Assembly (NCBI GenBank): GCA_951804945.1
Contig: OX638156.1
Span: 38,626,001-38,690,000, forward strand
Length of the DNA: 64,000 nucleotides
Direction of reading: 5' to 3'
Source: Podarcis cretensis
Taxonomy: Eukaryota
Made by a program: the position numbers and the translations under genes
Notes under the pieces: generated by a model
Database searches by the model: none
Seen by the model: the letters and a program-made list of their open reading frames with translations, nothing else
Told to the model about the DNA's origin: nothing
Part shown: piece by piece, positions 6,378-31,300 of the stretch
Layout of the letters: each line of letters opens with the position of its first letter
How positions within the stretch are numbered: position 1 is the stretch's first letter

Positions 6378-8929
6378 TCAGCTGTATGTGTAAAAGTTGT
6401 GCCTTTCTATGGCAGGTATCATTTCCTTAAAATGGCTGTGTTTTGGTCAACTCTAGTTAGCTTTTATTTGGGGCAGCAAACTTTAAGGCAGCCTTCCCCA
6501 CCCTGCCCCCCCCCCCAGATGCTTTGGGCTTCACCTCTCATCACCCTCAGCCAGCACAGCTGGAAAAGCTGCTTTAAGCAATATTTTTTGCAACCTGTTC
6601 CTGCTCTCAATGACTTCTTACAGTAGCTGTTCTTGTCAACAGAAGTCTTCCTAGCTTGTCTCTAGGGATGCTCACATCCCAGGAGACTTTCGCACTCTGA
6701 TGTACAAACATAACATGAGCAACAGTGTGAACTGTCAGAAAAACTGGGTGTGGCCTTGGGTGGACTTATTGCTTTCTCTCTCCCTCTTGTAGGATATTCA
6801 GATAGAAGCCTTGATGATGCGAGCATGTGAGCCAATTATCCAGACCTTCTGCCATGTAAGTAACTCTTACTCATACTTGTTCTAATTTGGATAAGGATTG
6901 AGTGTGGAGTTCCTCCATTAGTATCAGTTGAGGGGAGGAAGACCATAGCCATGTGCATGCCTTGTAGTTCCCCCTTCATGTTAAGCATACCTTACTGGAA
7001 TGTCCATAATTCTCAAGGGCACAACCAGCCTTCTTGCATCCCCAGTTCCCTGCTCAGAACTTAGCCTTAATTACAGTGCTGGTTTCGACATCCAAAAGTT
7101 ATAGCAAGCAGGTGCAAGACTGCATGTGTGCTGTGATTCCATTGGTGCACAGAATGGGACAGTGGTAATTCAGTTTTCTGGCCTTTTTCTTCTTCCATTT
7201 TCTAAAAGCAAATATCTGGTTTGCTGAAATATCTGAATATAAAGGGTGGGTGAAACAATTTCCAGTAGTCATGTGCAGGACTTTTCATTGTTAGTTTATT
7301 GATGCTCATCGTGCACAAAACCAGAATAAATTATACAGAGTAGGAGCGAGTATGTAGAATTCAGCTATTGTTGCATAGTCTTTGTATATCTCTGGCATAC
7401 CAGACGTAGTTAAATTGCAAAATGTGTTTATGGCATTTAATAGATTGTGTTGCATTTTTGGGTCCAGTGGGGGCATGTGCAGCTGTAAAGCAACTTGAGA
7501 GCTCTGGGGCTAACAGGCCCTGACTAGTCATTTTAACAATCAGGTTTCAAATGTAAGCCAGAGAGGTGCAATTACCTTCTCCAGCTTTAAATCATGGGTC
7601 CCGTTGCTTCCTCAGCTGAGGTACAGAGACTTCCAGGAAGGGAGTTAGTTCCCGACAGGTTGTCATTAGTCTGTCTGTCCCATCCCCCCCCCCCCCAATA
7701 TCCCATTCAGGAAGTGGCAGACAACCAGATTGACTCAGGAGACCTCATGGAGTGCCTCATTCAGAACAAACACCAGAAGGAGATGAATGAAAAGTGTGCA
7801 ATTGGAGTCACACACTTCCAGCTGGTGAGTGTGGCTGGTTCTCCAGCATCCCCTAGTTTGACTGAGTCTGGGAGCCAGACATCCATTATCCCTTTTCACT
7901 CTGGAAGGCCAAAGGCATTTTCCTGTCTGCTGGAATTTGAACTGTTATGGCATAGTCCCCTTTTCAGTGCTGCCTTGGCTTATTTGCCACAAATAAGCTT
8001 CCGGATGTTGACTACTTTGTGCCTTTAGCCACGTTCCTTCCAAATCTGCCATTCTCATTTTGTAATTGGAGGCAGGCAGTGCATGTGGTTGGACCCATAG
8101 TGATTTGGATGGGCATTGCATTCTACCTTAGCCTCACTAGAAGGGATAACTTGAACTGAAGCTCAAAGGTGGCAAGGGAAGAAGCAGGGCAGAGAGATGC
8201 CATTGACTAGGGCTGCAGTAGCAGATATTCTTTGAAAGACTTCCTGTGCCTGACCTTGAGAGGAGCCTGTTTGCTTTTCTTTCTTTAGGTTCAGATGAAA
8301 GATTTCAGATTCTCCTACAAATTTAAAATGGCCTGCAAAGAGGATGTCCTGAAGCTGTGCCCCAACATCAAGAAAAAGTATGTGTGTGTGTGTCAGAAAT
8401 TTGGCCTCATGGCTTTTGAATGCTAGAGAAAAATTTGTCTCTTAATCAGAAACTGGTAACTGATACCCAAGAGTTTTACACTAAGATAGCCTGGTGTTAT
8501 AACACTTCTGTCCTCTTCAGGGTGGATGTGGTGATCTGCCTGAGCACCATTGTACGCAACGACACGCTGAGAGATGCAAAGGAGCACCAGGTCTCCATGA
8601 AGTGCCGCAAGCAGCTACGTGTTGAGGAGCTGGAAATGGTAAAAGTTGCCCTCTTGTTACTCTGAGGCTTTGCAAAGGCTTCTGTGGAGGGTTGCATCAG
8701 CTTGCGCTACCCTGAAAATATTTGGCTGCCCCTCAGTGCTAGTTTCCTTCTCTCTAATTACCATTTCTTATATTCTAAATTGGGCTTATAGCAGGCTTCT
8801 TTGCAAACGTTGGCTTTTCCTGGCACCTTGCCACAAGAAGGCAGTTTTTGCTGAGCCAAAGCCAGCCCCAGCTGTTGGGGTTTAAGAGTCTTGTTCAACC
8901 AGCTCCCTTGGACCAATAGAACTGCAAGC

Positions 8930-8980
<51 letters not shown>

Positions 8981-11900: not shown

Positions 11901-14900
11901 GCAAATGATTACCAAGCGCCAGATTACACAGAACACAGGTAATGGTGGGGGTTTTCTTGGAATTGGGCCTGGGCTCTGCACTTAAGGGCTGTAATCTTTA
12001 TTACCTGAAATGTCTGATATCCCATCTGGACTACTTTAATGTGCTCTAGGTGGAGCTGCCTTTAAAATGTGCTCAGAAATTTCAGTTGGCCCAAAGAGCT
12101 GCAGCCAGACTGTTGACCAGGGCTAGATATAGGGAGCAAATGATTTCTTTTTAAAACATTTCCAATGGCTACTGGTCTGTTTCCAGGAACAATTCAAAGT
12201 GCTGGTTATGACCTTACTTATAAAGCCCTATACAGCTTAGATCCAAGCTATCTGAAAGACCATATTCCCTCATACAAACCTACTTGGCCCTGAGATCTTT
12301 GGGGGAGGCCCTTCACTCAGTCACACCACCCTCACGGCATGTTTGCCGGGCACATAAGATAGGACCTTCTTGGTAACTGCTCCCAGACATTGGAATTCTC
12401 TTCCCAGAGACGTTAGACTGGCTCCTTCCTGGTTGCCCTTCTGCTGGCAGGAGAATACTTTTGTATTCCAACAGGCTTTTAGGAACTGACCTTTTTTAAG
12501 GAAAGGGCTGGTGCTATGATATTTTATAGTTGTTATTTATACAGGTAACTCACATCTTATGCTTATTTTACTTACACGATTGTAGCTTTGTGGGCGGGTG
12601 GTAAATAAATAAATGGAGAGCCAAGGAAACCCACTCTCCATTTATTTATTTCCTCCCCACACTTGTGCATAGTTGTGATCACATGCTTATCCTGCTCTGG
12701 GAAGGCTGTGGGAGGGCTCTGGCAGCGTCCCAAGTTCAGCCTGCCAGACTAGACTGTCTTGTTTGCTTTGTTTGTGTGGCATAAATGTTTTGTCTATTCA
12801 GGTCTGCTGTAGGTATAATCGCCTCCAAGGCAAACTTTTCTTGAGTGTTAAAATAATTTGTCCTCTCCTTGCACAACCCCATGCCTTCACCATTCAGCAT
12901 TGCCTATTTGAAAACTGGTAGGATTTTTTTTTTATTTGTCTTATAAAAACATCTGATTTTAAGTTATTACCTATACTTGAAACGTAAGAGGAGATTCCCT
13001 AGCCCAATACTAAAGTTCATACTGTGCATACAAAAAGTGTCAGGTTCAGTTCATCTCCAGTTAAAAGGATCTCTGAAAGAGCTTGATATAAACCTGAATT
13101 TTTTAAAAATGCAGAGATTTAGCTATGCTATAACTATGTGTGTTTTCAGGTGTGATTGTATGTTCCTCAGCTTTTGCTGAATAAAGAAAAAAGTTTTAAG
13201 AACACCCCTTTCCCCCCTCCCCTGGGTTATTTTCCCATGGCATCGGGTTAACCATATCAGTCACCCACCCTTCGATAATTTCTACAGACATTATGAGAAC
13301 AGCCTGGAAGCAGCACCTGTACTGCTCTATTTATATGCAGTACTGGGCAGAACAAAAAAAAGTTGGAAACCAGCGTGGTTTGGATAATTGTCTTTAAATT
13401 TTCATATTCCTAACCCTGTGTGCATCATCAGTTGATAGCCACCACGGAAGGCTTTCATATCACCTCATCCATGACACTTGGCAATGATTTAGCATTGGCA
13501 TGCCCTCCCTATCACAAGCAGGACCTACAAACCACACCTAAATGTTACGTATGAATCAGAGATAGTAGTTGGTTGTGACCCTAACAAACCACAGTGTAAA
13601 GCTAAAGCTTGTTCTTGGCTTCCTTGTTCTTTTGCATCCTTTGAGCAGAACAAACAACATTGCTGATGTGGATATGATGCTAAGCCAGGGTTTGTTGCTT
13701 GCACTAGGGGATGAGGGAAGCAGGAGGAATCTCCATATTAATGGTCAACCATGACCATGAGAGCTGGGAACCAAGTAATTTGAATTCCACAGCTTGTTCC
13801 TTTTTTCTATGCTCCCACAGGATTGTGGGCATCTGCCGAGCCTTGTGTGTATGTAGCTGGTTTCCTGAGAGCCAAGGCCTTGCAACTTGGCTACATTATG
13901 GGCAACTCAGACAGAAAGAACTCCAGTGCTAGGCTGCTTAGTAAAAGTGGCTCAGTTCTGCAGCTGGCGCCTCATTCCAGCAGCCAGTTTTCATCACTAA
14001 TTTTGCTCCTTTCTTCCTTCATAGATTACCGCCTGAATCCAGTGCTCAGGAAGGCCTGCAAAGCTGACATCCCCAAATTCTGCCAGAGCATTCTGACCAA
14101 GGCCAAGGATGATTCTGAGCTTGAAGGACAGGTCATATCCTGCTTGAAGCTGAAATACGCAGACCAGGTGACTAAGGGGCATGTGTTTCACAAGGACCTA
14201 GGGCCAGAAGGTCCCCAAAGGGACTTGTTCTGCTATGTGACATGTGCCAGTCAACAAGCATGTTTAAAATACAGGCAGGTCTCAGAAGCTTAGGCCCAGT
14301 TATACAGGTTCTCTGGGATTTTGTTCCAGTGATCTGATTTAGTCAACCGAAACTTAAAAGTTACGTTTATTTAACTTAAAATTTAAAAAGTGTGCTGTGT
14401 AAATTTTACATGCTGAATAACTATCTAAAGAATTTTTCCAGCAACCAAGCATTTGAAATGAATGTTGATTAGGAGAGAAAAATGAATAAAACCCACTTAA
14501 TAAAACATTTTAAGATGGGACAGTTGAAAACATACAGTTCCATACATGGTTTAATGTTTGTAAGTAATAGAGTGTTTAACATTAATTTTATCAAGTCCTA
14601 AAAGTTAACCACTTATATTTGGAAAAAGCTGTAACTATATTGAAATTGCACAATTCATTATGTTATTAGCTAATTTTATGGAACAGTGAGTTTTTTGTAA
14701 TCCATCTGGTGTCACTGATCAGCCTAAGTGGTGCGATCATTATGTTAAAAGGAGTGATGTGTAAAGCAGCCCCTGAGAGTTGAGAAGGCTTCTTCTTGGA
14801 CCTGCAGACAGAAAGCAGAGGTGATCATTGAGCTGCTGGTAGCCTTCCTCTGCTTATCTTATCTCTTTATCAACTAAATGGCCCTGCTCTTTTCCCTCAT

Positions 14901-17900
14901 GAATATATCAAGGGATATTAGGAGACAGAATATGAGCATAGGTAAACAATGAAGGAGGACTCATCTCTGCCTTATCTCCCTGGAAGCATTCAGAATTCCC
15001 AGCTGTCAGAGGCTCACTTGCATGGGGCTTCTTCTGGTGTGGTGAATGTAACACATAATTACCCTCTTTGATCAGATTGCTTTGGCTTGCTGTATTCTTG
15101 CATCTTGAATTGAATTGCAGATTTTGTCTAAGTGCTGCCTCATTCTAATGTTTTCCCATATGAAGAATTCTCCCTATAGAAAAAAGCCATATACAAAGCT
15201 GCCTTTTGCTGTCAAAGATTGTCTTTAAGAGATTTTTAGTGCTAAAAAATGCACCAAAAATACATGATTGCTCAAGTTAGTTAAGATTAGTGGTTAATGG
15301 TTAGTAGTTAAGATTTGTGCTGAATGTGCATTAATGATTCTATGGCATGACTGTTCTTGTTCTCACCCTTAAACAGCGTCTCTCTCCCGACTGTGAAGAT
15401 CAGATTCGAGTGATTATCGAGGAATCCGCTCTTGATTACCGGTTAGATCCTCAGTTGCAGATGCATTGCTCAGAAGAGGTAGGAGCTTTCAAATTCAATC
15501 CTCCTTCACACTATATATGTTGGCAAGTTCTCATGAGCTCCTGGTAGTACAGTTTGAACTATGGCGATCTTGATTGAATCCCCCAGTAGTTTAAAATCAC
15601 CTTGTGGTTGTCACCTTTTGTGGCATTTGCAATTTGCAGAGAATGGATTTGCTCCAAGAGCTGCTTGTAGAGCAAAGCGTTACGGGAATCCAGCTTGGCA
15701 TTTTACACAAAAATTGTTCATGTTTCATATGGAATCATCCTGTCCAGAGTTAAAGTGATATGTTAAGTTCCTCCCCTTGGTCCTTTTCATGCTATGAGGA
15801 ATAGTTCCTTGTTTCATCGTAACTGATATTTAAGGACCTCTTTGAGAACAAGCCTCCCATGAATTTGGAAAGGAACAGGAAGCTTAAAAGCAGGAGTAGA
15901 TGGTCCCTAATAGTATTGCCTTGCCGAGCAAAAACTATATGATAGAAGCGGGGTGGAGAGTAGGTGCTGCTTGTCACCTCTGCTCATTTCCAGAAATTGT
16001 TCCAGGCTCTGCCAGGTGGAATTTAGCTTAAGTCAGGGAATAGCTTCCAGCCTTGGCCTTAGGCAACATCCACAATAGAGGACCTCTGGATAATGTTGCT
16101 AATCCTCTGGGCTATGTTACACTGTAAGCCTTTCCTCAGTAATAAAGGGATAACATGTACTGAACCAGAAAGTAAGGTTGCATTTGTTTGCCTTGCTAGA
16201 TTCCATGTTTTGGACCTTTTTTCACATAAATTTGTTCTATCTCCCTCCAAAAGGAGGCTAATTTGTTGGCCTGTGGTACTATAACCTAATGTATTTTATG
16301 TTTTGAAAGATATCTAGCTTGTGCGCCGAGGAAGCAGCAGCCCAGGAGCAGACAGGACAAGTGGAAGAATGCCTGAAAGTGAATCTGCTAAAGATCAAAG
16401 CAGACATGTGCAAGAAGGTAAAGAACTAGGTGTGCTTCTGTGCTAATGGCAAGGGGGAGAATGCTAGATTGTGTACAGCTCAATCTGATGGCATTCTCCT
16501 CACTTCGGAACTTCTTCGGCGCTGCAGCTTTGTTCCCTAGCTTGGATGTTCCAAGGATTCCTAGGGCTAGTTGTGATTTGATTTCCCCTCTGTCACTGCT
16601 CCTCAGTCCACTTCAGTCAGCCAAAGGAAGGCATCTATTCCTTCCCCTTTGCATTTTTCTGTTGCCACACTTCAGCACATCCCTTTCAAATTCTGACCTG
16701 GCAACAGTCATCAATGCCTTCATAACTTTGAGTAGACTACTATAGATGTGCTCCATTTGAAAGCAACTGGAGTCTTCCACACTGCAAAAAAAGCTTACTT
16801 TGTTTGAGAACTGCTCAGGGCTATAAAGCAGGGTTTAAGTATTCTAAGTATAATGAAGCAGCAGGAGGATGAGCAAGTTAAGATGAAATATGCAAATCAT
16901 TATATTGAGGGTGCATTGCAATTTTCTGCCCTTCTAGGAGGTGCTCAACATGTTGAAGGAGAGTAAAGCTGATATCTTTGTGGACCCCGTCCTTCATACG
17001 GCCTGTGCCCTTGACATCAAGCACCACTGTGCTGCCATCCCACCAGGAAGAGGGCGACGTAAGTCTTATAGCTTGCTAAGAAGCCCAGGAAGCATCTCTG
17101 CCACCAGTGGTGCTACTTCCACAGAGTCAATTGTTTTTAGTCTTATGTTCCTGCCCTTGGTATTGAACAAGTCTAGGCACAATTGCACTCTAAACAACTT
17201 GCTTAGGATAGATTTGTACACTTCCTAGAGGTGTGAAGGACTAGTGGATAGAATCCCCCCGCCAGTGGTAAAAAACAATATACTTGGGGGGAAACAGAGG
17301 AACTTCCATACAACTTTCATCATCATTGTTTAGATTAATGAGTAAAATCTTTTCTAAGCAATACGTATTTTCTAAAAATATATATAAAATATGTTAAACA
17401 CTGGGGTCACCAATGTGGTGCCCACAGGCACCCCTGATGATTTTGCCTGGTGCCCATGAAATCTCTGAGCCCCCCATTGCTCCCCCTCCCAATGAAGTGG
17501 TGTGATGGTCGTTACCTGTTTTGTCACCTTGAGAAACACATAATAGCAAGAGGGTGGGAAGATCAAGATCATGATGATCTGAGAAAAACTGTGCCTTCAA
17601 TCATTTGTAACACTCTTCCCACTGTTCTGCAGAGATGTCTTGTCTGATGGAGGCCCTGGAGGACAAGCGTGTGAGGTTGCAGCCTGAGTGTAAGAAGCGC
17701 CTTAATGACCGGATTGAAATGTGGAGCTATGCTGCCAAGGTGAGCAAAGCTGCTCGCTTTATTCCTCCAGGAAGACCTCTTCTGGGTGCCTAGGGATTGT
17801 TGGAGTTATGAGGGAATTGGAACAGATGGAAGGTTCCAGCATGATGCATGTGCTGATGCTGAAGGCCGTGAACACATGATGGAATGCCGCTACTGTAATG

Positions 17901-18140
17901 ACAATCCTTGACACAATATGCTAGATTGGTCTTGGAAGCGAGTCTGAGTTACCGACATGGACAGCCTTAATATGCATGTCGAGCATGGCTCCTCATCACT
18001 TCTGTGCAATTCTAAATTCCATCTGTTGAAAGCTATCCTTGCCAGGGCAAGTGCAGCACAAAATGTAACAGTTGCTGTTACAGAGCAGGGCCCCATCACT
18101 TGATATCTGAGCTCCTGGACTCTGAAATGGGGGGGGGGGG

Positions 18141-18191
<51 letters not shown>

Positions 18192-19263
18192 TTGGAAGGC
18201 AATACTATACTGCTGTTGGACAAGCATGTAGCACCCTAGTGGGGAATCCCCACTCCTCTCCAGACACCTTGCTGCACATACCCTGGCTTGTGTTTGCACA
18301 CTCTGCTGAGGAGAGATTGGTTACAGAAAGAACATCCTGAATCTCAAGGGGAAAGCTTGCAGTTGAAAGGATATAAGGAGCGTAGGACTCCTCTTGTTAC
18401 TTCACAGCTGTTGATCTTTTTTGTTCAATACCATGTGAGGGAGGGATAGGATCAGATACTTTAAAAAATCATTTATTAATGGAATTTATAAAGTTAACCT
18501 ATTACACAAAATCTTTGATTGATGCCCAAAACAAGCACAATTAAAGTACAATATAAAGTGATAAACTAAAACTTAAACTAAAAACACAAAACACAGTTTT
18601 TACAGCCAAGAAGACTAGTCCATAAAACAAGTTATTTCAAAGGCCCCTAGGTGAATAGAAAGGTCTTCACCTGGTTCTGAAAAGATCACAAAGCTGGTGC
18701 CAGGTGATTTTCTTTAGGAGGTGTGTTTCTTCACCCAGGTGCCACTACTGAAAATGCCATCTCCCTGCCCTACTTTGTTTGTTTATTTTTATTTGAAAGA
18801 ATTTACAAGCTGTTTAATATATATTTTAAATTTCTTAAGCCTGTGAAGAAAAAAAGAAGGTTCAGGTAAGCACCTATGAGAGAAGGAGCTGGCAGAACAC
18901 CAGCATAACATGGACAAACGGCCTAGCCCAGTTTATGATCCTGCAACCCTATTCTGGTTTATACAGGGTTGTAACAAATCGGGTGGTTTTAGAGAAGATT
19001 TTTTTGAAGCACTGACCCCTAAATTTCATCTGTACATTGTAGATATCTGTTACGATTGGTTTGGGAGCTGACTCTTCTTCCTCCTTGCCTGTCAGGTTGC
19101 CCCAGCGGAAGGCTTTTCTGATCTTGCCATGCAAGTGATGACCTCTCCATCCAAGAACTACATCCTCTCAGTGATCAGTGTGGGCATCTGCATCCTGTTC
19201 CTGATTGGCCTGATGTGTGGGCGTATCACGAAGCGAGTGACACGAGAGCTGAAGGACAGGTAG
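26..19263 (+). CDS. GLG1: Golgi apparatus protein 1 (GLG1/MG-160/ESL-1/CFR), 3' part, 17 coding exons; 5' exons outside window
   Basis: join(26..127,1655..1808,3420..3557,6052..6138,6793..6855,7711..7824,8289..8377,8521..8638,9790..9882,10598..10735,11815..11938,14025..14167,15377..15478,16310..16417,16938..17058,17633..17739,19096..19263). All junctions GT-AG and phase-consistent (1969 nt = 1 nt + 656 codons incl. stop). Encodes Cys-rich GLG1 repeats, a TM helix (YILSVISVGICILFLIGLMCG) and the tail RITKRVTRELKDR*. Confidence 0.97.
1135..1510. mobile_element. Old Tigger/pogo-like MITE
   Basis: Terminal inverted repeats CAGGTGACTCGCAACTTG ... CAAGTTGCGAGTGACCTG (one mismatch); the expected TA TSD is degraded. 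Confidence 0.6.
1655..1808 (+). CDS. GLG1: GLG1 exon (LDLVLYRKCQGDASRLCH...EEQGRR)
   Basis: acag|A ... AGG|gtaggc. Confidence 0.95.
3420..3557 (+). CDS. GLG1: GLG1 exon (LSRECRAEVQRILHQ...KTETGQ)
   Basis: gcag|CTA ... CAG|gtatct. Confidence 0.95.
3926..5935 (-). mobile_element. 5'-truncated, 5'-inverted non-LTR retrotransposon (LINE; clade uncertain, RTE-X-like)
   Basis: 12-bp TSD TTGGGGTGAAAC at 3914-3925 and 5936-5947. The 3' end on the minus strand reads ...GGTCTGTGACCGTTTAATAAACTTTGATTTGAAT. C-terminal ORF2 segment on the minus strand, RT segment on the plus strand. Confidence 0.9.
4070..4660 (-). mobile_element. LINE ORF2 C-terminal segment with Cys/His zinc-knuckle-like motif
   Basis: Uninterrupted frame ...RVCPCGSSEVETSLHVLLHCSYYEDLR... 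ending in a stop at 4070, followed by 3'UTR and AATAAA. Confidence 0.8.
4663..5943 (+). mobile_element. LINE ORF2 reverse-transcriptase segment (inverted relative to the 3' part)
   Basis: Intact motifs KAPGAD, NYRPISLL, QAGFR, FVDFKSAFD, GVKQGCVLAPTLF, LYADD, FKYLG with no stops or frameshifts; no endonuclease domain present. Confidence 0.92.
6052..6138 (+). CDS. GLG1: GLG1 exon (ELECLQDHLDDLAAECRDIVGNLTELESE)
   Basis: ttag|GAA ... GAA|gtaagt. Confidence 0.95.
6327..6378. repeat. (CTTT)13 microsatellite
   Basis: Perfect tetranucleotide run. Confidence 0.95.
6793..6855 (+). CDS. GLG1: GLG1 exon (DIQIEALMMRACEPIIQTFCH)
   Basis: gtag|GAT ... CAT|gtaagt. Confidence 0.95.
7711..7824 (+). CDS. 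GLG1: GLG1 exon (EVADNQIDSGDLMECL...THFQL)
   Basis: tcag|GAA ... CTG|gtgagt. Confidence 0.95.
8289..8377 (+). CDS. GLG1: GLG1 exon (VQMKDFRFSYKFKMACKEDVLKLCPNIKK)
   Basis: ttag|GTT ... AAAAA|gtatgt. Confidence 0.95.
8521..8638 (+). CDS. GLG1: GLG1 exon (VDVVICLSTIVRNDTL...EELEM)
   Basis: tcag|G ... ATG|gtaaaa. Confidence 0.95.
8935..8999. repeat. (CT)n + (GT)n compound microsatellite
   Basis: Direct reading. Confidence 0.9.
9135..9270. mobile_element. Palindromic hAT-type MITE
   Basis: 15-bp TIR CAGCTTTTCTCAACC/GGTTGAGAAAAGCTG; 8-bp TSD TTCTAGGG/TTCAAGGG; ACTACAA...TGATGGGAGTTGTAGT core. Confidence 0.8.
9790..9882 (+). CDS. GLG1: GLG1 exon (TEDIRLEPDLHEACK...YGNAQ)
   Basis: gcag|ACT ... 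CAG|gtgatc. Confidence 0.95.
10598..10735 (+). CDS. GLG1: GLG1 exon (IIECLKENKKQLSTRCH...CKQMIK)
   Basis: gcag|ATT ... AAG|gtaagg. Confidence 0.95.
11815..11938 (+). CDS. GLG1: GLG1 exon (RFCPEADAKNMLQCL...ITQNT)
   Basis: tcag|AGA ... ACAG|gtaatg. Confidence 0.95.
12015..12540 (+). mobile_element. Degraded L2 LINE 3' fragment
   Basis: Decayed ORF2 end resembling SRLDYCNAL..GLPL...KLQL.QNAAARLL; boundaries approximate. Confidence 0.65.
14025..14167 (+). CDS. GLG1: GLG1 exon (DYRLNPVLRKACK...KYADQ)
   Basis: atag|AT ... CAG|gtgact. Confidence 0.95.
15377..15478 (+). CDS. GLG1: GLG1 exon (RLSPDCEDQIRV...MHCSEE)
   Basis: acag|CGT ... GAG|gtagga. Confidence 0.95.
16310..16417 (+). CDS. GLG1: GLG1 exon (ISSLCAEEAAAQEQTGQ...DMCKK)
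   Basis: gaaag|ATA ... AAG|gtaaag. Confidence 0.93.
16938..17058 (+). CDS. GLG1: GLG1 exon (EVLNMLKESKADIFVDP...PGRGR)
   Basis: ctag|GAG ... CGAC|gtaagt. Confidence 0.95.
17633..17739 (+). CDS. GLG1: GLG1 exon (QMSCLMEALEDKRV...WSYAAK)
   Basis: gcag|AG ... AAG|gtgagc. Confidence 0.95.
18129..18188. repeat. G15 + (AG)n microsatellite
   Basis: Direct reading. Confidence 0.9.
19096..19263 (+). CDS. GLG1: GLG1 last coding exon (TM helix + cytoplasmic tail, stop TAG 19261-19263)
   Basis: tcag|GTT GCC CCA GCG GAA ... GAC AGG TAG. Confidence 0.96.
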   Translation, partial: VAPAEGFSDLAMQVMTSPSKNYILSVISVGICILFLIGLMCGRITKRVTRELKDR

Positions 19264-22200
19264 AGCCTGCCTTGGTAGTCAAAGGGAAGAAGGAAGGAAA
19301 GAAGGCCTGCCTGCCTGCCCGTTGCCCAGTTTGTACAGCCCTCCTCTGTATAGTCTCCCCTCCCACCTCTCCGGAGAGTACAAACAGATTAGAACAGCAG
19401 CCCGTGCCAGCTGAGTGTCCCATCTCGTCCATGGCTTCTCCACCCTCGGAACGAGTTGGCACGTGCAGCCTTGGCGGTCCAGCCAGCAGCTTCGTTACCC
19501 TGTCGTTAGCGACTGTTGTTTGCCTGCCTGTAGACAAGTTTTTTCTCTTTCTCTTTCTCTCTTTCTCATACTGTCGGAACTGCCTTCACTCCCCAGACAG
19601 ACTGACAACCTGCAGCTCAAGAGGTTTTTAAAGCAAATTTTTAAAGATCTGTTCCAGACATAGTGTTGGACAGTAGGTCTTGGTGTGGAAGTGTTTGTGC
19701 TCCTTGGCTTAGGCAGGAGGACCGAGGGGAAGGGACATCACCCACCATTCACAGCTGGCCTTGCTTTGGACATCTGGCTCACCCTGGAACAAGCATCTCC
19801 AGCACATAATCAGTCAGCAAGAGTTGCCTCCAGAGACCCGTCATCATCTCTACTGTTTTTGTGCTTTTGTTACTGTATTCTGTTGTACTTCTTTTTTTCT
19901 TTTTGTGGCTTGTTCCTCCGTTTTTGCCAACAGGCAATGCCTTCCATACTTCTCCACCCCCACTCCAATCTTTGGGGTTAATAAAATATTGACCAGATTA
20001 AAGAAACTTCAGTGGTCTTACAGGTACCCCCTGCAAAACCATACTGTATCTCAAGGGAAGCCGTAGGACAAGCTATGGTGGAGCTGTGGTCTTGGGTAGT
20101 AAGGCGGTGGGTTTTGGAAGAAAACGAGGATTTGGGTCCTCCCCAAAGGGGCTGGACCCATAGGGTTCTTATTTACAAGTTACTGAAGTTTCCTCCCTGA
20201 ACTGTCAGGGAGGGTGTAAGACTTCTTTTGCTGTCAAGAATCCATCTCAAGAGATCATCAGCCATTTGGGAAGTAGGGAAGCTGGCAGGGCTCCCTACAC
20301 TAAGCAAGGATGGGGGAGGGGAGGGGGGGATAGCTTTCTGAGAGTTGGATGGGAGAGGTATCTTTGCTGAAGTGATGCTTTTAGTAACAGTACCACAGTA
20401 CCTGTTTGCAATGAGCAGGAGTGTGCTCCTTGTCTGTTGATTGGAGAGCACAGGGAGGAACTCGAAGAAGAGGAAATACGCATGTGCAGGCTCCTTGTGT
20501 ATAGTAGGATATCTATCAGCCTGTTAGACATGGTTGCCTGTATGCTTTAGAGGGCTAAATCATGAGTCTGCCCGACACAAGGCTTGAATGCAACATCTTC
20601 TTCCCCTCCCTGCCCCTTTTCCTGCTTTGCTGCAACTGCTCAGTCAGATGTCAACTTCTCAGCATTCTGCATTAACGTCACAAAAGCGAGGGGCTTTTGG
20701 CAATGGGACCAGCTGATCTTAATGATGTGGACACTCAGCCATACCACTACTGTGAATATTTTCTGCTGCTCTTGAAGTGTTGGTAAAAGGCACAAAAGTT
20801 TTTAGCTTTAGGAAACCTTTATTTTTCATCCTACTGGAAAGCAAGTCGTGCAGAGTGTGGCTTTGTATTCCCGAGGATGGCAAACTGGAAAAGCTTGTGC
20901 AAGAATCTCACCCCACCCCACCCCTGAGGCCCACTGACTGTTTCAGGCCTCCAAAATTAAGGAGAGATGATTAGGGAAATCAGAGATCAGTGGGCGAGCC
21001 TGTGTGTACTGAAGGGTTTTTTTGGACTGTGGCCACTAGATTGGATTTCCTTCCCCTGCTTCTGATATTACTGAATCTATGAATGGTGACATTGGAAAGG
21101 GGTGTGTGCCATAGTTCCCCAACTAGTGTGTGCTCAGTGCATTCCAAAGCCTCTATTCCCTCCCCCCTCCCTTTCACCCACACCTGGATGCCCTTCAGTA
21201 TTGTGTTGTTCTGTGTTTTAACTCTGAGGCAAGGCATAGACTTCTTTATCCTAAGGAATCCACCTTGACTCTGAAATGGGTTGGCAATGGTGGAGGATGC
21301 TCTCAGGGCAACTCAAGTCACTTGCAAGAGAGGCAGCCAGCAGATTAATTGCAGGGCGCTTAGAGCTGCTATTCATACTGTAGGAGGCAAGGAATAACCT
21401 TGGTCATATCATCTTCCGAATCCTACACAATGTTGGGAAGAAACTGGTACTTGCATATGGTGACCCTGCAGCAAATGCTGTGAAAGGAGAGGATGCCCCC
21501 ACCATCCTGGCTAGCACATGCATTCAGATAAGATGCACAACGTATTATTCTTACATTGCTTCCCTTCAGCCAACTACAATTGCCTTCCCTCGATCCTAGT
21601 GGGAGTGCCCCATTGGTTAATGAAAGAAAAATGCTCTTCCCATAATCAGCAGCAGTGGTTTTTGCAGGCATATAGTGATGCTACCGAAGAGGAGGAGCTT
21701 GTGCGAGAAGCACGTAAGGGGGCTAGTTGCCTGGGAAGAGACAGAATGCCGAAGCCATTACAGCCAGCCAGTCACTCACTCCACTCTCTCAGTGACCTTG
21801 AATGAGCCATTGTTTTAAAGAGACGAGAAGCTGCCTCTTGAGTTCCAAGCTCTGCAGGTCTATGTCTCAGCATCACCTAAGCCTCCATGCAGTCTCCTCA
21901 GACCCTGTCAGTTTCAGTCTGACAGCTAAGTATTCCTGCTTTGAGGCTTATTTGAGGGACAACTGTTTACAAAAATGATCCTTCATCTAAAGTGGCATTG
22001 TATTGCAAGTGTTGTGCTTGTCATTTCCTTCTCAGAATACGTGCAACTGCTTGAGGAAGATGGAAGGGGCTGTGCTGCAGTTTGAATGTTTGAAAAGTAC
22101 TTAGGAATTGGGAGCTTGTTTTTCTGCTTCTTCCCTATAAGGTTCCCTGTTTGAACTTGTAGTACTTGCTGTCTTCACCACTGTGGCCTCGACTGTCTTG

Positions 22201-23161
22201 TAACACGAGCTCCTCCAGCTTCTGGACCCTGTGCTGCTGCTGCTTCTCCTTCCTTGTGTCTCATCTAAAGCTGTGCTGATGCTGTTCTCTTGGCTCTCAT
22301 CTCAAGGAAGGTCCCCTGTTTTGATGCATTGGAGATGGAAGTACGCGGGTTGGGCACTGCTCTATGCATAACAGGATTAGAGTACCTGCAGAAAAGCCCT
22401 GGTAGAGCCTAAGGAGCAGGGATTTCTAGGCTTTTAGTGGTGGCTCTTAGATGTAGCCTAGGGTATTCTCTTGTCCCAAAGTAAGCTAAGGAACTTGTTG
22501 AATTGGAAAACTGAAGGATCACACATCCTTTTCCGCTTCATAGTTTGTCCTGGCCCCCGGCTTGTGCTGACACCTGTTCTCATATTGCTAGTCCTTCTGG
22601 ACAGCTGTGACCAGCATGATAATTGGTTCCATTTCTGTGTAGATTCTGAGCATCAGGTGCGCCGCTTCTCCATCCGACACTTGCAGACTCCTCCATCCAG
22701 AGGCTCCCTAGCTGGCGCAGAGAATTAAATGACTTATCTCAAGGTTCTTGGAAATGCATCAGAGGCAGGCTGCAATTTCCCTTCAGGTATGCTTTGGAAC
22801 TCAATATAAGTGGTGTTTGATTGAAGAATAGGTGTTTGAGAGAAGCAAAACGCAGGTGCACAGAACAACTCAGGGTGGCATAAAAGGGTTCGTATTCAGT
22901 GCCCCTCCTGCAGCTTGCAAAACCAGCCCTTTGGAGAGACAGTAAATTGGTAGATGATACAGCTAATGTTGGCTGACCCTTAGTCCTTTTAAAAAATGTA
23001 ACATTAACAAAGGTTTTTTTTGTAAATTGTTTTTCCTTTCTATGTACAAAATCTTGGCTGTTCTTTCTTTTTACATGTTCATGCTGTGTAATTTTGAATT
23101 GTTAACGGAGATTCTGAACATAATGTGCATTTTTTTCTGTACAGATGAAATGGGAGAATTT

Positions 23162-23167
23162 AATAAA
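23162..23167 (+). terminator. GLG1: Probable main GLG1 polyadenylation signal (AATAAA); 3'UTR ~19264-23185
   Basis: AATAAA preceded by a U-rich block with TGTA motifs and followed by a U/GU-rich tract; repeats resume just downstream (CR1 at ~23270). Another AATAAA lies at 19980-19985. Confidence 0.7.
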
Positions 23168-23269
23168 AAAGAGTCTGCAGGTTTTTACTTGTTTTGCTTG
23201 TGTCTCCATCAACTGTGAATAAAAAGGGAATCTCCCTCCCCAAGTCATGCCAGACAAACTATCTCCTTT

Positions 23270-23910
23270 TCTTTTTAATCCAGAAAAACTTTTGACAGAA
23301 ACTCATGTGGTACCTTTGTTGACAAGATGGTAAAATGTGGGCTGGATTATAATTGTTGAATGGATCCACCGCTGGTTGAGCAACCATATCCAACGGGTGT
23401 TCATTGATGGCTCTATCTACCAAGAAAGAGGTCTCAATTGTCAGGGCTGTGTTCCTGGGCTGTTAAACACCTTTATAAACTACTTTGATTCAGGGGGTGT
23501 TTATCAAGATTTGCAGATGGCATGAGACTGAGACTAATTATAGCTCTCACTTTAAAAGATAGAATCAAAATTCAAAATGATCTTGAGAGGCTGGAACACT
23601 AGGTTACAAATAAGTGAAATTCAACTGAGATAAACATCAAATCCTGCATTTAGGTACCAAAAAAGAGCCAGATTTAGGTTGGGGTGGGGACCTAGCTTGG
23701 CAGTTGGGCATGTGAGAATTTAGGTTTCTTAGTCAATCACAAGCTAAACATGGACCTACAGTGCCGTTTTGCTGATATATAAGCAAACACAATCTTCAGC
23801 TTAAATTAACACAAGCATGGTGTCCACAACATGGGGAGTAAAAGTTCTGCTCTGATTGCTGGTCAAGCCACATCTGGAGTACTGTTTCAGTTCTGGGTGT
23901 CACATTTAAA
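23270..23910 (+). mobile_element. Degraded CR1 LINE RT fragment
   Basis: Decayed CR1 RT motifs (FD..., KCGLD...WI..WL..QRVFIDG, FAD, HLEYC.QFW) with stops and frameshifts; boundaries approximate. Confidence 0.7.
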
Positions 23911-25299
23911 TTACATTTACCATCTTGCATTTTTAGCCTCCCTTTCCACCAAGGAGCTCAAGGCAGCAGACATGGTTGCTCCTTCCCCTATTTTATCTTC
24001 ATAATAACTATATGAGGTAGGTGAGACTGGGATATAGTGGCTGACCCAGGGTGGGGATCTGGCCCTACCCACCACTGACATGTGGCCCTCAAAAGGTTGC
24101 CCAGAAGATGGTGTAGTTCAGGCTGAAAAAGGTTCCCCACTTCTTCTGTAGGTGCAAACAAATCTTACTTTGGAGCAAAGTTCATGATGCCTGTCAGCCA
24201 CCACACTTCTTGGTCTGCCTTATGTCAGTTTTCATGAACCAGCCCTGACCCAGATGGGAATTCCCTGTTTCCCAAAGTGATGGTATCTCTAAGAATGATG
24301 CCACAAGCCACTGTGTCTCACTGATGCAGTGTGGGGTAGGCATACTTGGCTTTGTTGAAATATTACATGATGAGGGGAAGATACATTTGGATTGGATCTG
24401 TATCAACAGTAGGCTCAAGTGTTGGGGAAGGGGGAGGGGACACTGGAACAGTGGTAACCCAATAAAAGCAGAGTGCTTCAAAACTGGGATGCCTGTCTGT
24501 GGCAAAGAGCTAGCCCAGGATGGAGAAGATGTATTTTTCTTCTTTGTTTTTTGTGCAGTTGGGAAAATATAGGGCTTAGCTGTTCAATGGTGAGTTCCTA
24601 AACTGGAGGAAGAGGATCTTGTTCTATGTGAAGTTGGGGCTTTATGAAAATACATTCCCTCCAACTTAATCATGCAAAGCTTCCCAATTTGGCTTTTTGG
24701 TTTTTAACCTAGTGCACCACTAAAAATTAATCTTCAACTTTCTTCATATGAAAACTGCTGAGCTTCTCTTGGTCTTGCACCTAAGGACTCTCTGTGTTTC
24801 ACCTAAAAAGATACAACGGCGTACAGATGGATGCATTTTTTAAAATGGGGATGGAGCAGTGGTCAACCATTGCATGCTTCTTTGTCCCAGCAGTAGGAGG
24901 TGCAGCCTAAAACTTGCTTCAGCGCACAATAGACTGGAGTCTCCTTTGTTCTCCACCCCCCCCCGACATTTCATCTGAATACTGTCCCAAGATGCAGGCA
25001 ACTTTAGGGACGGGGGGGGGGGGCTTTCTCCGCTCTGGAGGAACCAGGAGCCTCTTATCCAGCTGAGGATGGCGACCCTGCTGTGCTTTACAGATTGCCC
25101 GCAACTTTACGCCATTTTTGGAGCCTACGAGTTTACAAAAACGGATGGCAACATTACAGCGGACAACAATCACATTACTTACTTTTTTAAAAAATGTGAA
25201 CAGTCAGTGACAACCGAAGTCGAGCTTTCGTTCATTTATTACATTAACATATTTCCTTTCCTGCAAGTTGCTAGGGGGCACGGTGCCGGCACTCCTCCC

Positions 25300-26120
25300 C
25301 ATTTTCTTCTCCGTAATAGGCTGGGGTGAGAGACCCACCACGGAGCAGCTTCATAGGTCAGCGGAGTTCACCATGTGCAACGGTTCCACCACTTCGGCAG
25401 AAGCCTTACGAACGATCCCGCCAACAACAGCGACTCGATCGGTCCCTCGTTGCTTCCCAAAAGGTTTTTAAGATTTATTTTGCACTTTCAGGTATGCAAA
25501 AATTAATGCAAGCTTAAAGTATTATTTTTAATAAAGTAGCGGGAAGCTGCCTCGAGAATATGCGCCCCGCCCCCCGTAGCACTGGCAGTTCCTTGGCGAG
25601 CAGCGCGCACAAAACTCCCACTATCCAAAAAACTGCGTCCAGGATGTGCAGAGCAGCATTAACGCCGCCGCAGCTTAGGAACTGCACACTGCGCCTGCGC
25701 GTCGCAGAAGCTTTTCTTCCCCCCCCGCATCCCCGCCTCTCTGTCTCGGACTAGCACTCAAAGATAGCGGAGTGCGCTTGCGCGGACTCCGTAACCCCGC
25801 CCCCCGATTCTGATTGGCCGCCGCGCGGCTGATGTACGGCACCAGGTGCGCTGCTGTCGCGCGGTCCGGCCGTAAAGCGCAGGCGGGAAATCAAGGAAGG
25901 GAAGGGAGAAGGTCGCGCTCCGGAGGGGAAGCCGGCGTAAGTGAGGCGGCCCTTGAGTCGGCCCAGGCCTCGCCTGCCTCCCTTTCCCCTGAGCCATGTT
26001 GGGCGTGGCATGCTAATAAGCCCTGCGTGGGCGGGGCCGGCGCATGCAAACGAAGGCTGTGGAGGCGGGGCCGTTGCATGCAAATGTGGCCCCAGGGTGG
26101 GCTGGTGGGTTGCGGCAGGT
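25300..26120 (+). promoter_or_regulatory. PDPR: CpG-island promoter of PDPR
   Basis: CpG-dense; NRF1-like TGCGCCTGCGCG (25690-25701) and TGCGCTTGCGCG (25773-25784), GC box CCCCGCCCCC (25795-25804), inverted CCAAT ATTGG (25813-25817). Confidence 0.85.
25860..25936 (+). other. PDPR: PDPR putative non-coding exon 1 (start approximate)
   Basis: Consensus donor GGC|GTAAGT at 25937 inside the CpG island; next acceptor ttccag| at 28049. Confidence 0.65.
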
Positions 26121-26289
26121 GTGCCCTTTGCTGCTGGGGCAGAGCAGTCTTGCCCTCTCCCCACCTACAGAAATCTAGGCCTACTTTGCAAGGTGGTTGT
26201 TGCTGGCCATAACTCTGGAGTTCTTGAATGATTGATAAATTCCTCTTCGAATGTTAAGTTGTTGTTGTTTTGATTGTTAGATACTTCAG

Positions 26290-26495
26290 GGTGAGGAGAG
26301 TGTTGGACTGAGACTGATGAAGACGACCCTGGTTTGAATCCCTCCTGCCACGAAGCTCCCTGGGTGACCTTGGAGCACTCACAAACTCCCAGCCTCACCT
26401 ACCTCGCAGGGTTTGTTGTGAGGACAAAAGAGGAGGAGAGCCACACATTGCCGCCTTGAGCTCTTCTGAGGAAAGGTGGAACGTGAGTGTAATAA
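26290..26495 (+). mobile_element. tRNA-derived SINE (Squam3/MIR-like)
   Basis: gagtgttggact...ggtttgaatcc (B-box-like)...gggtgaccttgg...cctacctcgcagggtttgttgtgagga...ttgagctc; related copies at ~61930-62100 (+) and ~23920-24060 (-). Confidence 0.65.
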
Positions 26496-28110
26496 TCAGT
26501 AGCTGGCTTGGAGTGTTTGTCCTCCAGTTATAGGATCCTGGAGATGGAAGGATCAAAAATCCCGCTGTTGCAGGGAACCCGTTATTTCAGCATCCCTGTT
26601 TGGTGGCCACCCAGCCTCTGTTAAAAAATCTCTTGTGGAAAAGGCCACCAATTTCTGAGACAATCTGTTCCACTGTTGGACAGCTTGTACAGCCAGGAAA
26701 TACTTCCTCATGTTTAGGTGAAATTGCCATTCCTGCAATTTGAACTTGTGAGTCAGATCTTTCCCTCTAGAACAAATTAGAATAAATTTGCTCCTTCACC
26801 TCTGTAGCAGCTGTTCAAACATTTGAAGATTGCTATCATATTGCCCCTTAGTAGTCTCAGTGCTAAAAAAAATACACAACTCTTGCAGCCTTCTTCATAG
26901 GGCTCTGAACATTTTTGTTCCATGCCCCTCCCCAATGTTCTAGCTTGTTGATAGTCTTTTATTATTTCCGGCTGCTCTGTATCTTTTCCAGGTGGTCAGC
27001 AATCTTCTTCGTGCTCCAGATGTGGTCGTATCAGTGCTGAAAAGTGGGGTATGTTTATTTATTTCACCCAAGCCCTGGAATATTCTTTTCTCAGTGACAT
27101 AACTTGACATGAAATTGTGTCGGAGCACAATGGTTCTCCTTTGCCTGTGCCTTTGATGTGGTATGTGAAGTGTATAATATCTCACGTGGGGCGGAAAGGG
27201 TTGGGTTGAGAAAGATAGTACTGGGTTTTCTAGATGTTGCTTGTGGGGCGGCATTTAACGGGCTGCAGTCTCCTGTCTTTGTGTTCTTGACTTTGGCAGA
27301 TACAGCTTTTCTGTAACTAGTTCTTCCCCATTGCCTTTTTAAAAACAGCATTTTTGCCTTTCAAATCTCAGTGTATGATTTCCTGATAGCCTGCTTAAAT
27401 TTTAACTGAACAAAAGCAAGAATGTAAAAATTAAAAACATAACTTTATTTTTTATCATTTCCTTGTTATGCTCTACTATTGGAGTACTAGGTAACAGTGG
27501 TTCGGTATGTTCAGTATTAAAAAGCATTTGTTCTGTATGTGCTGTAACCAATTTAATTAATGGACCATGGCAACACAGTTCCCCACCCAGCCAAAAAAAG
27601 ACCTTTTGTTTGCAGTCTGTTGATGCTAAATACAAATTCAGTATTTTATGTCAAGCAATTCAGCATTTGAACAGAGTTGGACTTCCTGCCTGGTTTTTAT
27701 TTATTAATTAATTAGGGAATTGCTATAATTCTGCAAGTGTTGTTACGCAAAATAAAATAAAAAATCCATGCATCATTGGCTTTCTCTCACATATTTTTCA
27801 GTGATGTTCAGTTTGTGACAGTGTGTCCTTTGCAATGATCATCTTTTGCAGCAGGACCTGAAATCACCTCTGCCTAAGGCTATGGGTGGCTATTGTCTGC
27901 CTGGGTTTACAGAACCTGGCTGAGGGAACTTTTGCTCCATGTCAGTTACCTCTGTATAAGTCAAGGAGATTGTGATGCTGGCTGATGTCGTTTTAAGCCA
28001 TGATACAGTTTTGCAGATTGATTTTGCATAATAATGTTATGTTTTCCAGAAATAGCAACTCTCGGGATTTATCTGTGGGGCTCAGAAAGGGCTAAAGGAC
28101 CCTCATCAAG

Positions 28111-28337
28111 ATGTTCCTCCGGCTCTTGTCTGATGTCCGGTGGCAAAGAGCTAGCCCAGGATGGAGAAGCATGACCAGCTCCCGGCACAGTAGCACAACT
28201 GGAGCAGAACCTCACCTGACCCCTTTGCCATCACATGCACAGGTGGTTATTTGTGGGGGTGGAATCATGGGCACATCAGTGGCATATCACCTCTCCAAAC
28301 TCGGGTGGAAGGACATCGTCTTACTGGAGCAGGGCAG
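28111..28337 (+). CDS. PDPR: PDPR first coding exon (exon starts 28050)
   Basis: MFLRLLSDVRWQR...VVICGGGIMG...LLEQGR; GGCAG|gtaagt. Confidence 0.95.
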
Positions 28338-31300
28338 GTAAGTAGTTTTTTTCCCCCTTTGCAAAAGAAAATAGGTGTTTGAAGCAGCAAGTAATGCTGT
28401 GTGGTGGAACTGGGAAGGTCTTGTAGCAAAAGTAAAGTGTACACACACCTGTTAGCTAACTGTAAGATTCAAGCTGAGAGTTTATCTACATCTTCAGAAA
28501 AAGCATTTGTATTTTCTGGAACTGTACTGCTTCAGGTTAGGACCAATATTCAGATGTTCTCCTCACTTAAAAAACAAAACAGGAACAGAACCTCTCCTTG
28601 CATGTAGAAACCCAGCATGGTGGGGAGATGACTGGACTCAGCTAGAACCCTTCTCTGACATTCTTCTTTTCCACAGGTAGCGGTCCTTGTTCAGTAATAT
28701 CTTCCCTACATCTGATAGCTTTCTTATGCAGCATCTTATCTTTGGAATTTGTTTCAAATTGATTTGTCTCTGTCTTTCATGGGGATGAGGAATTGGTGTT
28801 CCTTCAGTTGTTGTTGGACTCCAACTTGCATCAGTCCTAGGAAGCATGGCCAATAGTTAGGGTGATGGGAGCTGCAGTCCCAGCAACATCTGGAGGGTTA
28901 AAACCTACCTTTTCTGTTTTCCTTGCTTCTGTTTGACTCAGCATCTCATACCTTGTTTCGTTTCCTTTACTTGTGCTTCTCCCTGCAATGGGGGTATCTT
29001 TAAAGACTGTCTGGCTGGTTGAAAATACAGCTGCTGGGCTACTAACTGGGACCAAAAGTTGGGAATGTTTTCAGCTGGTGGCTTGGAGCTTTCTTTAAAA
29101 GCCTGTCGTGGCTTGGGACCTGTGTACCTGAGACAGCACCAGTTCTCACATAAACCTACCCATGTGTTGGGATGGGGCGGGGGGAGGCTACAGGAATGCT
29201 GACAGTCTGGGGGTTTTGTTCCTGAGCAGTTGGAATGCTTATAAAATTAAATACAGTTGCACCTGCTAATACTGGTATAACAGGCTTCATTGCTACCAGC
29301 ACAGAGTCAAAGTTTCTGTAGAATTTCTGCATGCTTATTAAAATCATAGGGTGTAGACTCATGGTTATCAAGCTGTCTTCTTACACTTGTAATCAGGGTA
29401 GTAAAAATATTCTAAAGGAGTGAATTCCCCCCCATTATTTCAGTGCATACTTAAGATTGCCTTTGAAGCTCTGATTTCTGCTGATTTGGTGTATGGATTC
29501 CTGGCATGGTTGTTATTCCAGATTAATTAACTTTTAGTACATTGGTGTGATCTCACCTGTGTGACAACAGGGTACACAAGGGTGATCGGAATGAAATGCT
29601 TGTCATAAGAACATAAAAAGAGCCTGCTTGATCAGGCCAATGACCCATCTAGTCCAGCATCCTGTTTTCACAGTGGCGATCCAGATGCCATTGAGATGCC
29701 TGCAAGCAGGGCTGGAGCATAACAGTACTCTCCTCTCTGGTGGTTTCCAGCAACTGGTATTCAGGAGCATTACTGTCCCCGACCATGGAGGCAGAGCATA
29801 GCCATCATGACTAGTAGCCTTCAATAACCCTTTCTTCTATGAATGTCCCATGTCTTTAAAGTATCATCAGTAGTGTTAGCTGCTAGTTTGGCATTAGAGA
29901 TCAGCATTGTGTATGTTGTCTGAGTTAGTCTTTAAGACTGAAAGAAGCCCTGCCAGAAACCATCCGGTTCCTTTACGTTTCCTTTGCCAAGGAATGCTGT
30001 CCTGACCCTGTGTGCTGGTATTGCCCTGTCAGTGGCATGCAAGAGCAAATGTTTGCCCTTCCTTTGGCTCTGGTGGCAGAAATTGCCTCCTTGCACTTGG
30101 GCTCTCCTTGTGAAATCTGGAATGGAAGGCAAAGCGTGCCTCTTGTCAACACACAGCTAAAAATATCCCCTGCCATATCTTAGTGGCACACTTGGGCTTT
30201 GCATGCTCAGCACCCAAATTGGGTTTCACAAACTCCATCCTTTGTAAAACCAACACACATTTGCTGACTGTGCCTCACTTCTTCAGAGGAGCGCATTTTG
30301 ATTTTGTTGTGTGCTGGGAAGAGCATGGAGGAAAGCAAGGAAAATGAGATTGGGATCTACTTAATGACACTTTATTTCACTTCATACAAACTTAGCACTT
30401 CATATGGAATTTAAAAAGAAGCTCCTGTTTTATGACTGACCATCTAAGTAAAGATGAGGTGTTCCTGGCAATCTTGAAACTGTGTGCTGTGAGAGTATGT
30501 GATTGTTTTTTGATACTTCTAATTGTTTTTTAAACGTCTTACATACATTTTTAAAATTGTATTGTATTGTTTTATCACTGATGTATTTGCCACACTGGGC
30601 CCCTTTTGGAGGAAGGGTGGGATGTAAAAATAATAACTAAATAAAGAGGATGGGGCTTGAGGATCCATCCAAATGCAGAGCTTGTAAAGCATGGTGCCTT
30701 CCTAAAAGTGAATAATTGTGACAGGTTTTCCAATAGAAACCAGCCCAAAGAAACAGAGCCTTTCAGTTGCCTTTCTTCTAGCCCCTGGCAGTGATTTCAT
30801 CCAGTCCAGGTCCCCAAAAGAAGAGGAGTAGAAATATCAGGCTCATAGTCGCTGGTATGGTTATGTAATCTATCTGGTTCCAGGCAGGAAGTAGCTTCTA
30901 CTGGCCTCGGTGGTCTGTGATCCCAGTGTACAGGCCATGCCACCTTTGTAACACTTGCTGGTTGCAAAGTGGGGAGGTCTCCTTGGGGGGAAATATTTTT
31001 CCTTTCTCCAGGATACTGCCCATAATCCCCACTAAGTGCTACAAGTTTCCTGACTGTGGGCTCAAGAAACTGCCTTCTGGGTGTACCCACAGAGTCTTAG
31101 GAAGTACAGGCAAAGGTGCAAAAGGCCCCACTCTTTAATTGGTGGAAAGCCTTGCCTGCTCCTCCTCTTCCCTGCCTGATTCCATAGGAAATGACTCCCT
31201 GGGCCAACCACACTTAGCTGGTGAGCCAATTGGCCTGACTCTGGGTATGGCAGCTCCATACTTTCTTAGGGAGCCCTCTGCCACTGACTCATGACCTCTC

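What the first reader, a model, noticed from the sequence alone, without database searches (positions are those of the whole stretch)
19258..20066. Hidden alternative GLG1 C-terminus: donor overlaps the stop codon, strong acceptor 674 nt downstream
Seen: the GLG1 stop sits inside a donor-like site, CAG|GTAGAG (intron would start at 19260). In the 3'UTR, a ~95-nt U/C-rich stretch with no AG (19836-19931) ends in CAACAG|G (19933|19934), which looks like a strong acceptor. Splicing 19260-19933 restores the Arg codon (AG+G) and extends the cytoplasmic tail by 43 aa: ...RELKDR-QCLPYFSTPTPIFGVNKILTRLKKLQWSYRYPLQNHTVSQGKP* (stop 20064-20066). From memory: human GLG1 has an isoform with a C-terminal extension after RELKDR that alters Golgi versus surface localisation and was reported as primate-restricted; its segment KGLVWS resembles KKLQWS here. 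Inference: the tail switch may be an old amniote feature or a convergent one. An AATAAA inside this exon (19980-19985) could link poly(A) choice to isoform choice.
Basis: partly seen in the sequence, partly recalled or inferred. Interest (0 to 1): 0.7.

Follow-up and report, generated by a model that had tools for sequence, protein, structure and literature searches.

The report
Latent splice tail of reptile GLG1
The stop codon of a reptile Golgi-protein gene (GLG1) sits inside a splice-signal-like site, and removing a possible 674-base intron would add 43 amino acids much as in a known human variant, but the signals are only average, no relative's protein record shows this tail, and it is most likely a rarely used, unconserved side product.

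Summary
The anatomy is right: donor-like site across the GLG1 stop, a 96-nt AG-free U-rich tract ending in an acceptor-like AG at 19932-33, a 674-nt potential intron and an open 43-residue tail. The parts are less special than claimed. The donor beats 7 of 29 real donors and arises with about 9% probability from Asp-Arg-stop codons alone. The acceptor beats 13 of 29, has no canonical branch point, and at least 12 nearby AGs score higher; 17% of AGs give tails this long. Only the AG-free tract is uncommon. The tail has no protein relative. Extended GLG1 records exist (26 of 215), all starting with Arg or Ser as a splice here predicts, but the 4 extended squamate records of 11 are unrelated to this tail. 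Likeness to the mammalian tail is borderline and partly needs a frameshift. No junction reads were examined, so splicing is neither shown nor excluded. Most likely a latent, little-used 3'UTR intron analogous to the known human long isoform.

The parts
19096..19263 (+). Last coding exon of GLG1 (transmembrane helix and short basic cytoplasmic tail), with the normal stop at 19261-19263
   Evidence: Translation; 98% identity to Anolis GLG1 and 289 hits; exon map
19257..19265 (+). Donor-like site overlapping the Arg codon and stop; potential intron would start at 19260
   Evidence: 6.1 bits, above 7 of 29 real donors, 6 of 9 consensus matches; about 9% probability from Asp-Arg-stop codons alone; use not shown
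19260..19933 (+). Potential 674-nt 3'UTR intron (retained in the standard mRNA, inferred)
   Evidence: Sequence only; splicing untested
19836..19931 (+). 96-nt AG-free tract, 76% pyrimidine, 53% T; no yTnAy branch-point motif in 19800-19933
   Evidence: tied 5th-6th longest AG-free gap on the + strand of the window
19932..19933 (+). Acceptor-like AG
   Evidence: 7.5 bits, above 13 of 29 real acceptors; one AG between it and the donor scores higher (19600, 10.0 bits) and one ties (19716)
19934..20066 (+). Potential terminal coding segment: 43 extra residues (6 Lys/Arg, no Asp/Glu, no hydrophobic helix, no Yxx-phi, acidic dileucine, KKxx or PDZ-type end), stop at 20064-20066
   Evidence: no relatives
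20001..20031 (+). Segment with borderline likeness to the mammalian long-isoform tail (K-x-L-x-W in the tail's frame, then T-G-x-P in another frame)
   Evidence: Best UTR match in 5 of 5 frameshift-tolerant settings, rank 5-44 in 128 kb; not significant at DNA level
19980..19985 (+). AATAAA inside the potential coding segment; weak poly(A) context
   Evidence: Downstream T fraction 0.20 versus 0.47 and 0.35 at the distal signals
23162..23223 (+). Two distal AATAAA signals in U-rich context, likely the main GLG1 3' end
   Evidence: use inferred

Best explanation
The GLG1 stop codon lies inside a donor-like site and a U-rich, AG-free tract downstream ends in an acceptor-like AG, which most likely form a latent 3'UTR intron that would be removed in at most a small minority of transcripts and would add an unselected, lineage-specific 43-residue tail. 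Shown: the sites, the frame and their scores. Inferred: the donor is a by-product of the Asp-Arg-stop ending (any Arg codon ending in G before any stop gives GT); the U-rich tract can serve as a pyrimidine tract and draw some splicing, as in reporter genes; the standard mRNA keeps the intron, ends the protein at the normal basic tail and runs to the distal poly(A) signals near 23160-23240.
For: Donor weak-to-average (above 7 of 29 real; 123 of 3405 decoys as good) and about 9% likely from codon choice alone, 30% for the bare GT. Acceptor average (above 13 of 29), no yTnAy branch point whereas 17 of 29 real acceptors have one, at least 12 AGs in 19200-23240 score higher. A tail of 43 or more residues follows 17% of 294 AGs. 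No relative of the tail among proteins of 77-2000 aa, 1.84 billion representatives or Pfam; no listed sorting motif. 189 of 215 GLG1 records end at the normal Arg; 7 of 11 squamate records do, and the other 4 carry tails of 1, 5, 49 and 64 residues unlike this one. Dao et al. (10.1101/2024.08.05.606557; abstract, passages, section 7 read): a weak stop-overlapping donor plus U-rich tracts gives cryptic splicing and destabilised extended protein, and many natural UTR acceptors go unspliced in their own genes.
Against: The score-plus-AG-free-zone combination is rare (3 other decoys in 128 kb). All 26 extended records start with Arg or Ser, so gene models in many vertebrates use a donor at this position, and in primates it yields a described isoform. 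The best UTR match to the mammalian tail profile falls inside this very segment in 5 of 5 settings. In Dao et al. a far weaker donor reached nearly 100% splicing in some reporters. The protein searches see only cluster representatives, so a full-length extended reptile isoform could be hidden. The splice matrix rests on 29 introns only.
Confidence: 0.5

Rival explanations
1. The intron is spliced at an appreciable, possibly tissue-dependent rate and gives a real second GLG1 isoform whose tail arose independently of the mammalian one; the longer, basic tail would shift Golgi versus surface residence by masking or extending the normal end.
For: 98-nt AG exclusion zone equal to the longest among 29 real acceptors (99 nt); rare combination; new stop lies in the last exon so the exon-junction decay rule would not apply (established knowledge); same layout is used in mammals.
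Against: No relative of the tail; other squamate extended records differ; no canonical branch point, no recognised sorting motif.
Confidence: 0.2
2. The segment 19934-20066 is homologous to the terminal exon of the mammalian long isoform: the acceptor and intron date from the amniote ancestor, and the coding frame has since drifted by insertions and a frameshift after the Trp.
For: Mammalian tail profile: the two best hits in the 4-kb UTR (three frames) are adjacent and collinear at about 20016 and 20029; frameshift-tolerant scan puts the best UTR hit here in 5 of 5 settings, rank 5-44 in 128 kb; Gln-Cys follows the junction here and, one residue later, in the seal record.
Against: Back-translated DNA profile ranks the segment 209-503 in 128 kb; acceptor-anchored test gives 0.7-18% of 9774 AGs as good, depending on gap costs; plain local alignments p 0.03-0.15; tests were chosen after seeing the match; mammal-type tail found only in 4 primate and 1 seal record among 148 candidates; no bird, turtle or crocodilian record in hand has it.
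Confidence: 0.15
3. The stop-overlapping donor is used, but mainly with another acceptor in the UTR, giving a different and probably short tail; the 19933 site is not the main partner.
For: Higher-scoring AGs at 19600, 22035, 22141, 22913 and others would give tails of 3-24 residues; squamate records with 1- and 5-residue tails.
Against: Those AGs lack long AG-free zones (19600 has another AG 4 nt upstream); the records are automatic models whose read support I could not see.
Confidence: 0.15

Closest known systems
Human GLG1 long isoform ('GLG2'; Ahn, Febbraio, Silverstein 2005, J Cell Sci 118:1725, PMID 15797922)
   Same: Same gene, extension after the same last Arg; mammalian records show a 24-25-residue tail whose first residue fits a splice at the same codon position. 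Only the title was seen (reference lists); the name GLG2, the localisation effect and species range are recalled.
   Different: Tail here would be 43 residues, has no significant sequence likeness in frame, and is not shown to be expressed. The mammal-type tail also appears in a low-quality seal model, so the open frame is not confined to primates.
Cryptic 3'UTR splicing from a stop-overlapping donor to U-rich acceptors (Dao et al., bioRxiv 10.1101/2024.08.05.606557)
   Same: Weak donor at the stop codon, U-rich tract acting as pyrimidine tract, first AG downstream used, C-terminally extended protein.
   Different: Shown in GFP reporters in human cells; the paper notes that natural UTRs often stay unspliced; GLG1 is not mentioned in it.
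Cryptic C-terminal targeting tails made by splicing across the stop codon (fungal PTS1 isoforms; recalled, and echoed by unchecked scan notes)
   Same: Stop codon inside a donor; optional intron swaps in a new C-terminus that could change localisation.
   Different: Those tails end in a recognisable, conserved address; this one has none of the six motifs scanned and no shown conservation.

Membership tests
GLG1 / MG-160 / ESL-1 gene | Cys-rich repeat ectodomain exons, single transmembrane helix, short basic tail | tested here: met
   17 exons matched to skink GLG1 at 27-19260; last exon 94-98% identical to amniote GLG1
GLG1 long isoform (GLG2-type) | Donor at the second position of the last Arg codon that removes the stop | tested here: met
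   Site present, GT at 19260-61, 6.1 bits; presence only, not use
GLG1 long isoform (GLG2-type) | In-frame downstream acceptor and open tail | tested here: met
   AG 19932-33, 43 open codons; 17% of UTR AGs give as long a tail
GLG1 long isoform (GLG2-type) | Tail homologous to the mammalian 24-residue extension | tested here: inconclusive
   p 0.03-0.15, 0.034; best in UTR with a frameshift; not significant at DNA level; 0.007-0.18 anchored
GLG1 long isoform (GLG2-type) | Spliced mRNA is expressed | not tested
   No read-level result was obtained; RNA runs of close relatives are listed
GLG1 long isoform (GLG2-type) | Acceptor orthologous to the mammalian one / conserved in other reptiles | not testable with these tools
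   No genome held; no related vertebrate locus found in metagenome contigs; squamate protein records show other tails
GLG1 long isoform (GLG2-type) | Tail changes subcellular localisation | not testable with these tools
   Needs cell experiments; no Yxx-phi, acidic dileucine, KKxx, RxR or PDZ-type end

The most novel reading that the evidence does not exclude
The GLG1 tail switch is an old amniote device: the same stop-swallowing 3'UTR intron and terminal exon exist in squamates and mammals, the coding frame has drifted, and what is kept is the ability to lengthen the cytoplasmic tail and so tune Golgi versus surface ESL-1, not the tail's sequence.
Probability: 0.12. Interest if true: 0.55.

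Novelty: new member of a known kind. Interest (0 to 1): 0.25.

Why it matters
GLG1/ESL-1 binds E-selectin and FGF and regulates TGF-beta maturation (PMC10202991, passage), so how much reaches the surface matters. If a reptile makes a long-tailed form through the same donor, the human isoform would be either much older than thought or easy to re-evolve from a latent donor built into the Asp-Arg-stop ending. If it is unspliced or noise, it is an ordinary example of a cryptic 3'UTR splice pair. The evidence in hand favours the ordinary reading.

Tried and rejected
Read-level junction test: no result obtained, so expression stays open. Run search: 24 runs listed, 18 hold half or more of the sampled words, no RNA holder listed on record; six raw RNA runs of a close relative (X19-X24) were offered by species label; none of this was used as evidence. 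Whole genome not held. Related loci in metagenome contigs: 591 pattern matches, none confirmed. Tail searches blank; weak evidence because only cluster representatives are searched. Rfam over 19300-28000: 0 matches. Earlier scan findings: none by sequence or place. Ahn 2005 not held. Paper searches listed no paper on a reptile GLG1 tail isoform; only listings were seen for most, and the library lacks most subscription journals. Rejected: proximal AATAAA as an end for the spliced form (would cut before the stop); the six-residue likeness as proof of homology (10% of 3000 random window peptides score as well); stop-codon readthrough as the source of extended records (4 of 26 replace Arg by Ser). 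MaxEntScan and SpliceAI were not available; a 29-intron matrix was used instead.

Full report
Setting. The window holds the 3' two-thirds of GLG1 on the + strand (17 exons matched to skink GLG1 between 27 and 19260; intron ends called), then PDPR on + from 28111 to about 46480. The last GLG1 exon is 98% identical to Anolis and 94-96% to birds, turtles and mammals, so a squamate is likely (inference). The UTR probably runs to the AATAAA pair at 23162 and 23218.

Observation.

Is it more than chance? I trained matrices on 29 of 31 automatically called introns of GLG1 and PDPR (one further call failed, two doubtful ones dropped). The donor scores 6.1 bits: above 7 of 29 real donors in leave-one-out, matched or beaten by 123 of 3405 decoy GTs. 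With the gene's own codon usage, an Asp-Arg-stop ending gives a GT at this position 30% of the time and a site this good 9% of the time, so no selection is needed. The acceptor scores 7.5 bits: above 13 of 29 real sites, matched or beaten by 143 of 4675 decoys; at least 12 AGs in 19200-23240 score higher, one of them (19600) nearer the donor. No yTnAy branch-point motif (pattern recalled) lies in 19800-19933, while 17 of 29 real acceptors have one. A 43-residue tail is not rare: 17% of 294 AGs give one. The AG-free tract is the one uncommon element: 98 nt between AGs, tied 5th-6th longest on the + strand, and only 3 other decoy AGs on both strands combine such a score with an AG-free zone of 70 nt or more. 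Of the 8 gaps of 84 nt or more, 1 ends at a known real acceptor, so such tracts are mostly not acceptors.

Protein records. The tail has no hit among proteins of 77-2000 residues, among 1.84 billion representatives or in Pfam; both large searches see only cluster representatives, so this is weak. Among 215 distinct GLG1 records with the tail motif (of 244 proteins fetched), 189 end at the normal Arg and 26 are extended. All 26 have Arg (22) or Ser (4) at the last normal position, which is what a splice after the second base of that codon gives, so gene models in fish, axolotl, turtles, alligator, squamates and mammals use a donor here. Ten carry the mammal-type tail; the other 16 are unrelated to it. 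Of 11 squamate records, 7 end normally and 4 have tails of 1, 5, 49 and 64 residues. The 13 other tails compared with this window's tail gave shuffle p of 0.10-1.0. Most are automatic models whose read support I could not see. A search with the aye-aye tail region found 4 primate and 1 seal record among 148 candidates; the seal model is flagged low quality.

Likeness to the mammalian tail. A profile of five tails gave p 0.034, and its two best hits in the 4-kb UTR were adjacent, in different frames, at about 20016 and 20029. Following that lead, a frameshift-tolerant scan placed the best UTR hit at 20031 in 5 of 5 settings, rank 5-44 in 128 kb. Against it, a back-translated DNA profile ranked the segment 209-503, and an acceptor-anchored alignment was matched by 0.7-18% of 9774 AGs. 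These tests were chosen after the match was seen. Remote homology is possible but unproven, and if true the frame is not conserved beyond the Trp.

Poly(A). The AATAAA at 19980 lies 84 nt before the tail's stop; cleavage 15-30 nt after it (established knowledge) would leave a spliced mRNA without a stop, so it could only exclude the long form. Its downstream region is 20% T against 47% and 35% at the distal signals. I see no support for coupling.

Literature. Ahn et al. 2005 was not held; I saw its title in reference lists, and its content is recalled. Dao et al. (abstract, passages and section 7; supplements not seen) show that a weak donor at a stop codon plus U-rich tracts can give anything from no to nearly complete splicing in reporters, that the extended protein is less stable, and that natural UTRs with such acceptors often go unspliced. 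PMC10202991, PMC13601173 and PMC4542293 were read as passages only. Nine paper searches listed nothing on a reptile GLG1 tail isoform.

What is open. No junction reads and no orthologous DNA were obtained, so the two decisive tests, expression and conservation, remain undone.

Verdict. Most likely (0.5) a latent 3'UTR intron with little or no use and an unselected tail; 0.2 a real convergent isoform; 0.15 an old amniote exon with drifted frame; 0.15 a different acceptor. It would work like the human long isoform; membership in that isoform class is not established. Interest 0.25; 0.55 if the amniote-wide reading holds.

Noticed in passing
window 28111-46482 (+): PDPR gene directly downstream of GLG1, 16-17 exons matched to turtle PDPR, with two short introns of 101 and 93 nt; GC-rich promoter-like stretch at about 25500-26100.
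   Followed up: partly
window about 51530-58100 (-): Fibulin-7-like gene: exons with Sushi, calcium-binding EGF and Fibulin_C domains; the name is my inference from the domain order.
   Followed up: partly
window 23011-23109 (+): Second 98-nt AG-free U-rich tract just before the distal poly(A) signals, ending in a poor acceptor (-2.6 bits); likely a UTR element, showing that such tracts occur here without splicing signals.
   Followed up: partly
window 21569-22913 (+): Several latent splice sites in the distal UTR score above the candidate pair (acceptors 21569, 21911, 22035, 22141, 22913; donors 21713, 22480, 22786); 21570-21713 would be a 144-nt cryptic exon.
   Followed up: no
window 19790-19850 (+): Best UTR hit of the back-translated mammalian tail profile ends at 19850, just upstream of the AG-free tract; scores lie within the background range.
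   Followed up: no
protein records P0194, P0126, P0202, P0175, P0189: Axolotl, bat, pit viper, wall lizard and alligator GLG1 models each have a different short extension after the normal end, suggesting a widely present latent donor with shifting acceptors.
   Followed up: partly
window 23240-25500: An earlier scan note (e1-7852127) places a TCR-like gene beside the GLG1 3' end in cat; I did not look for it here, where only about 2.3 kb separate the GLG1 end from the PDPR promoter region.
   Followed up: no
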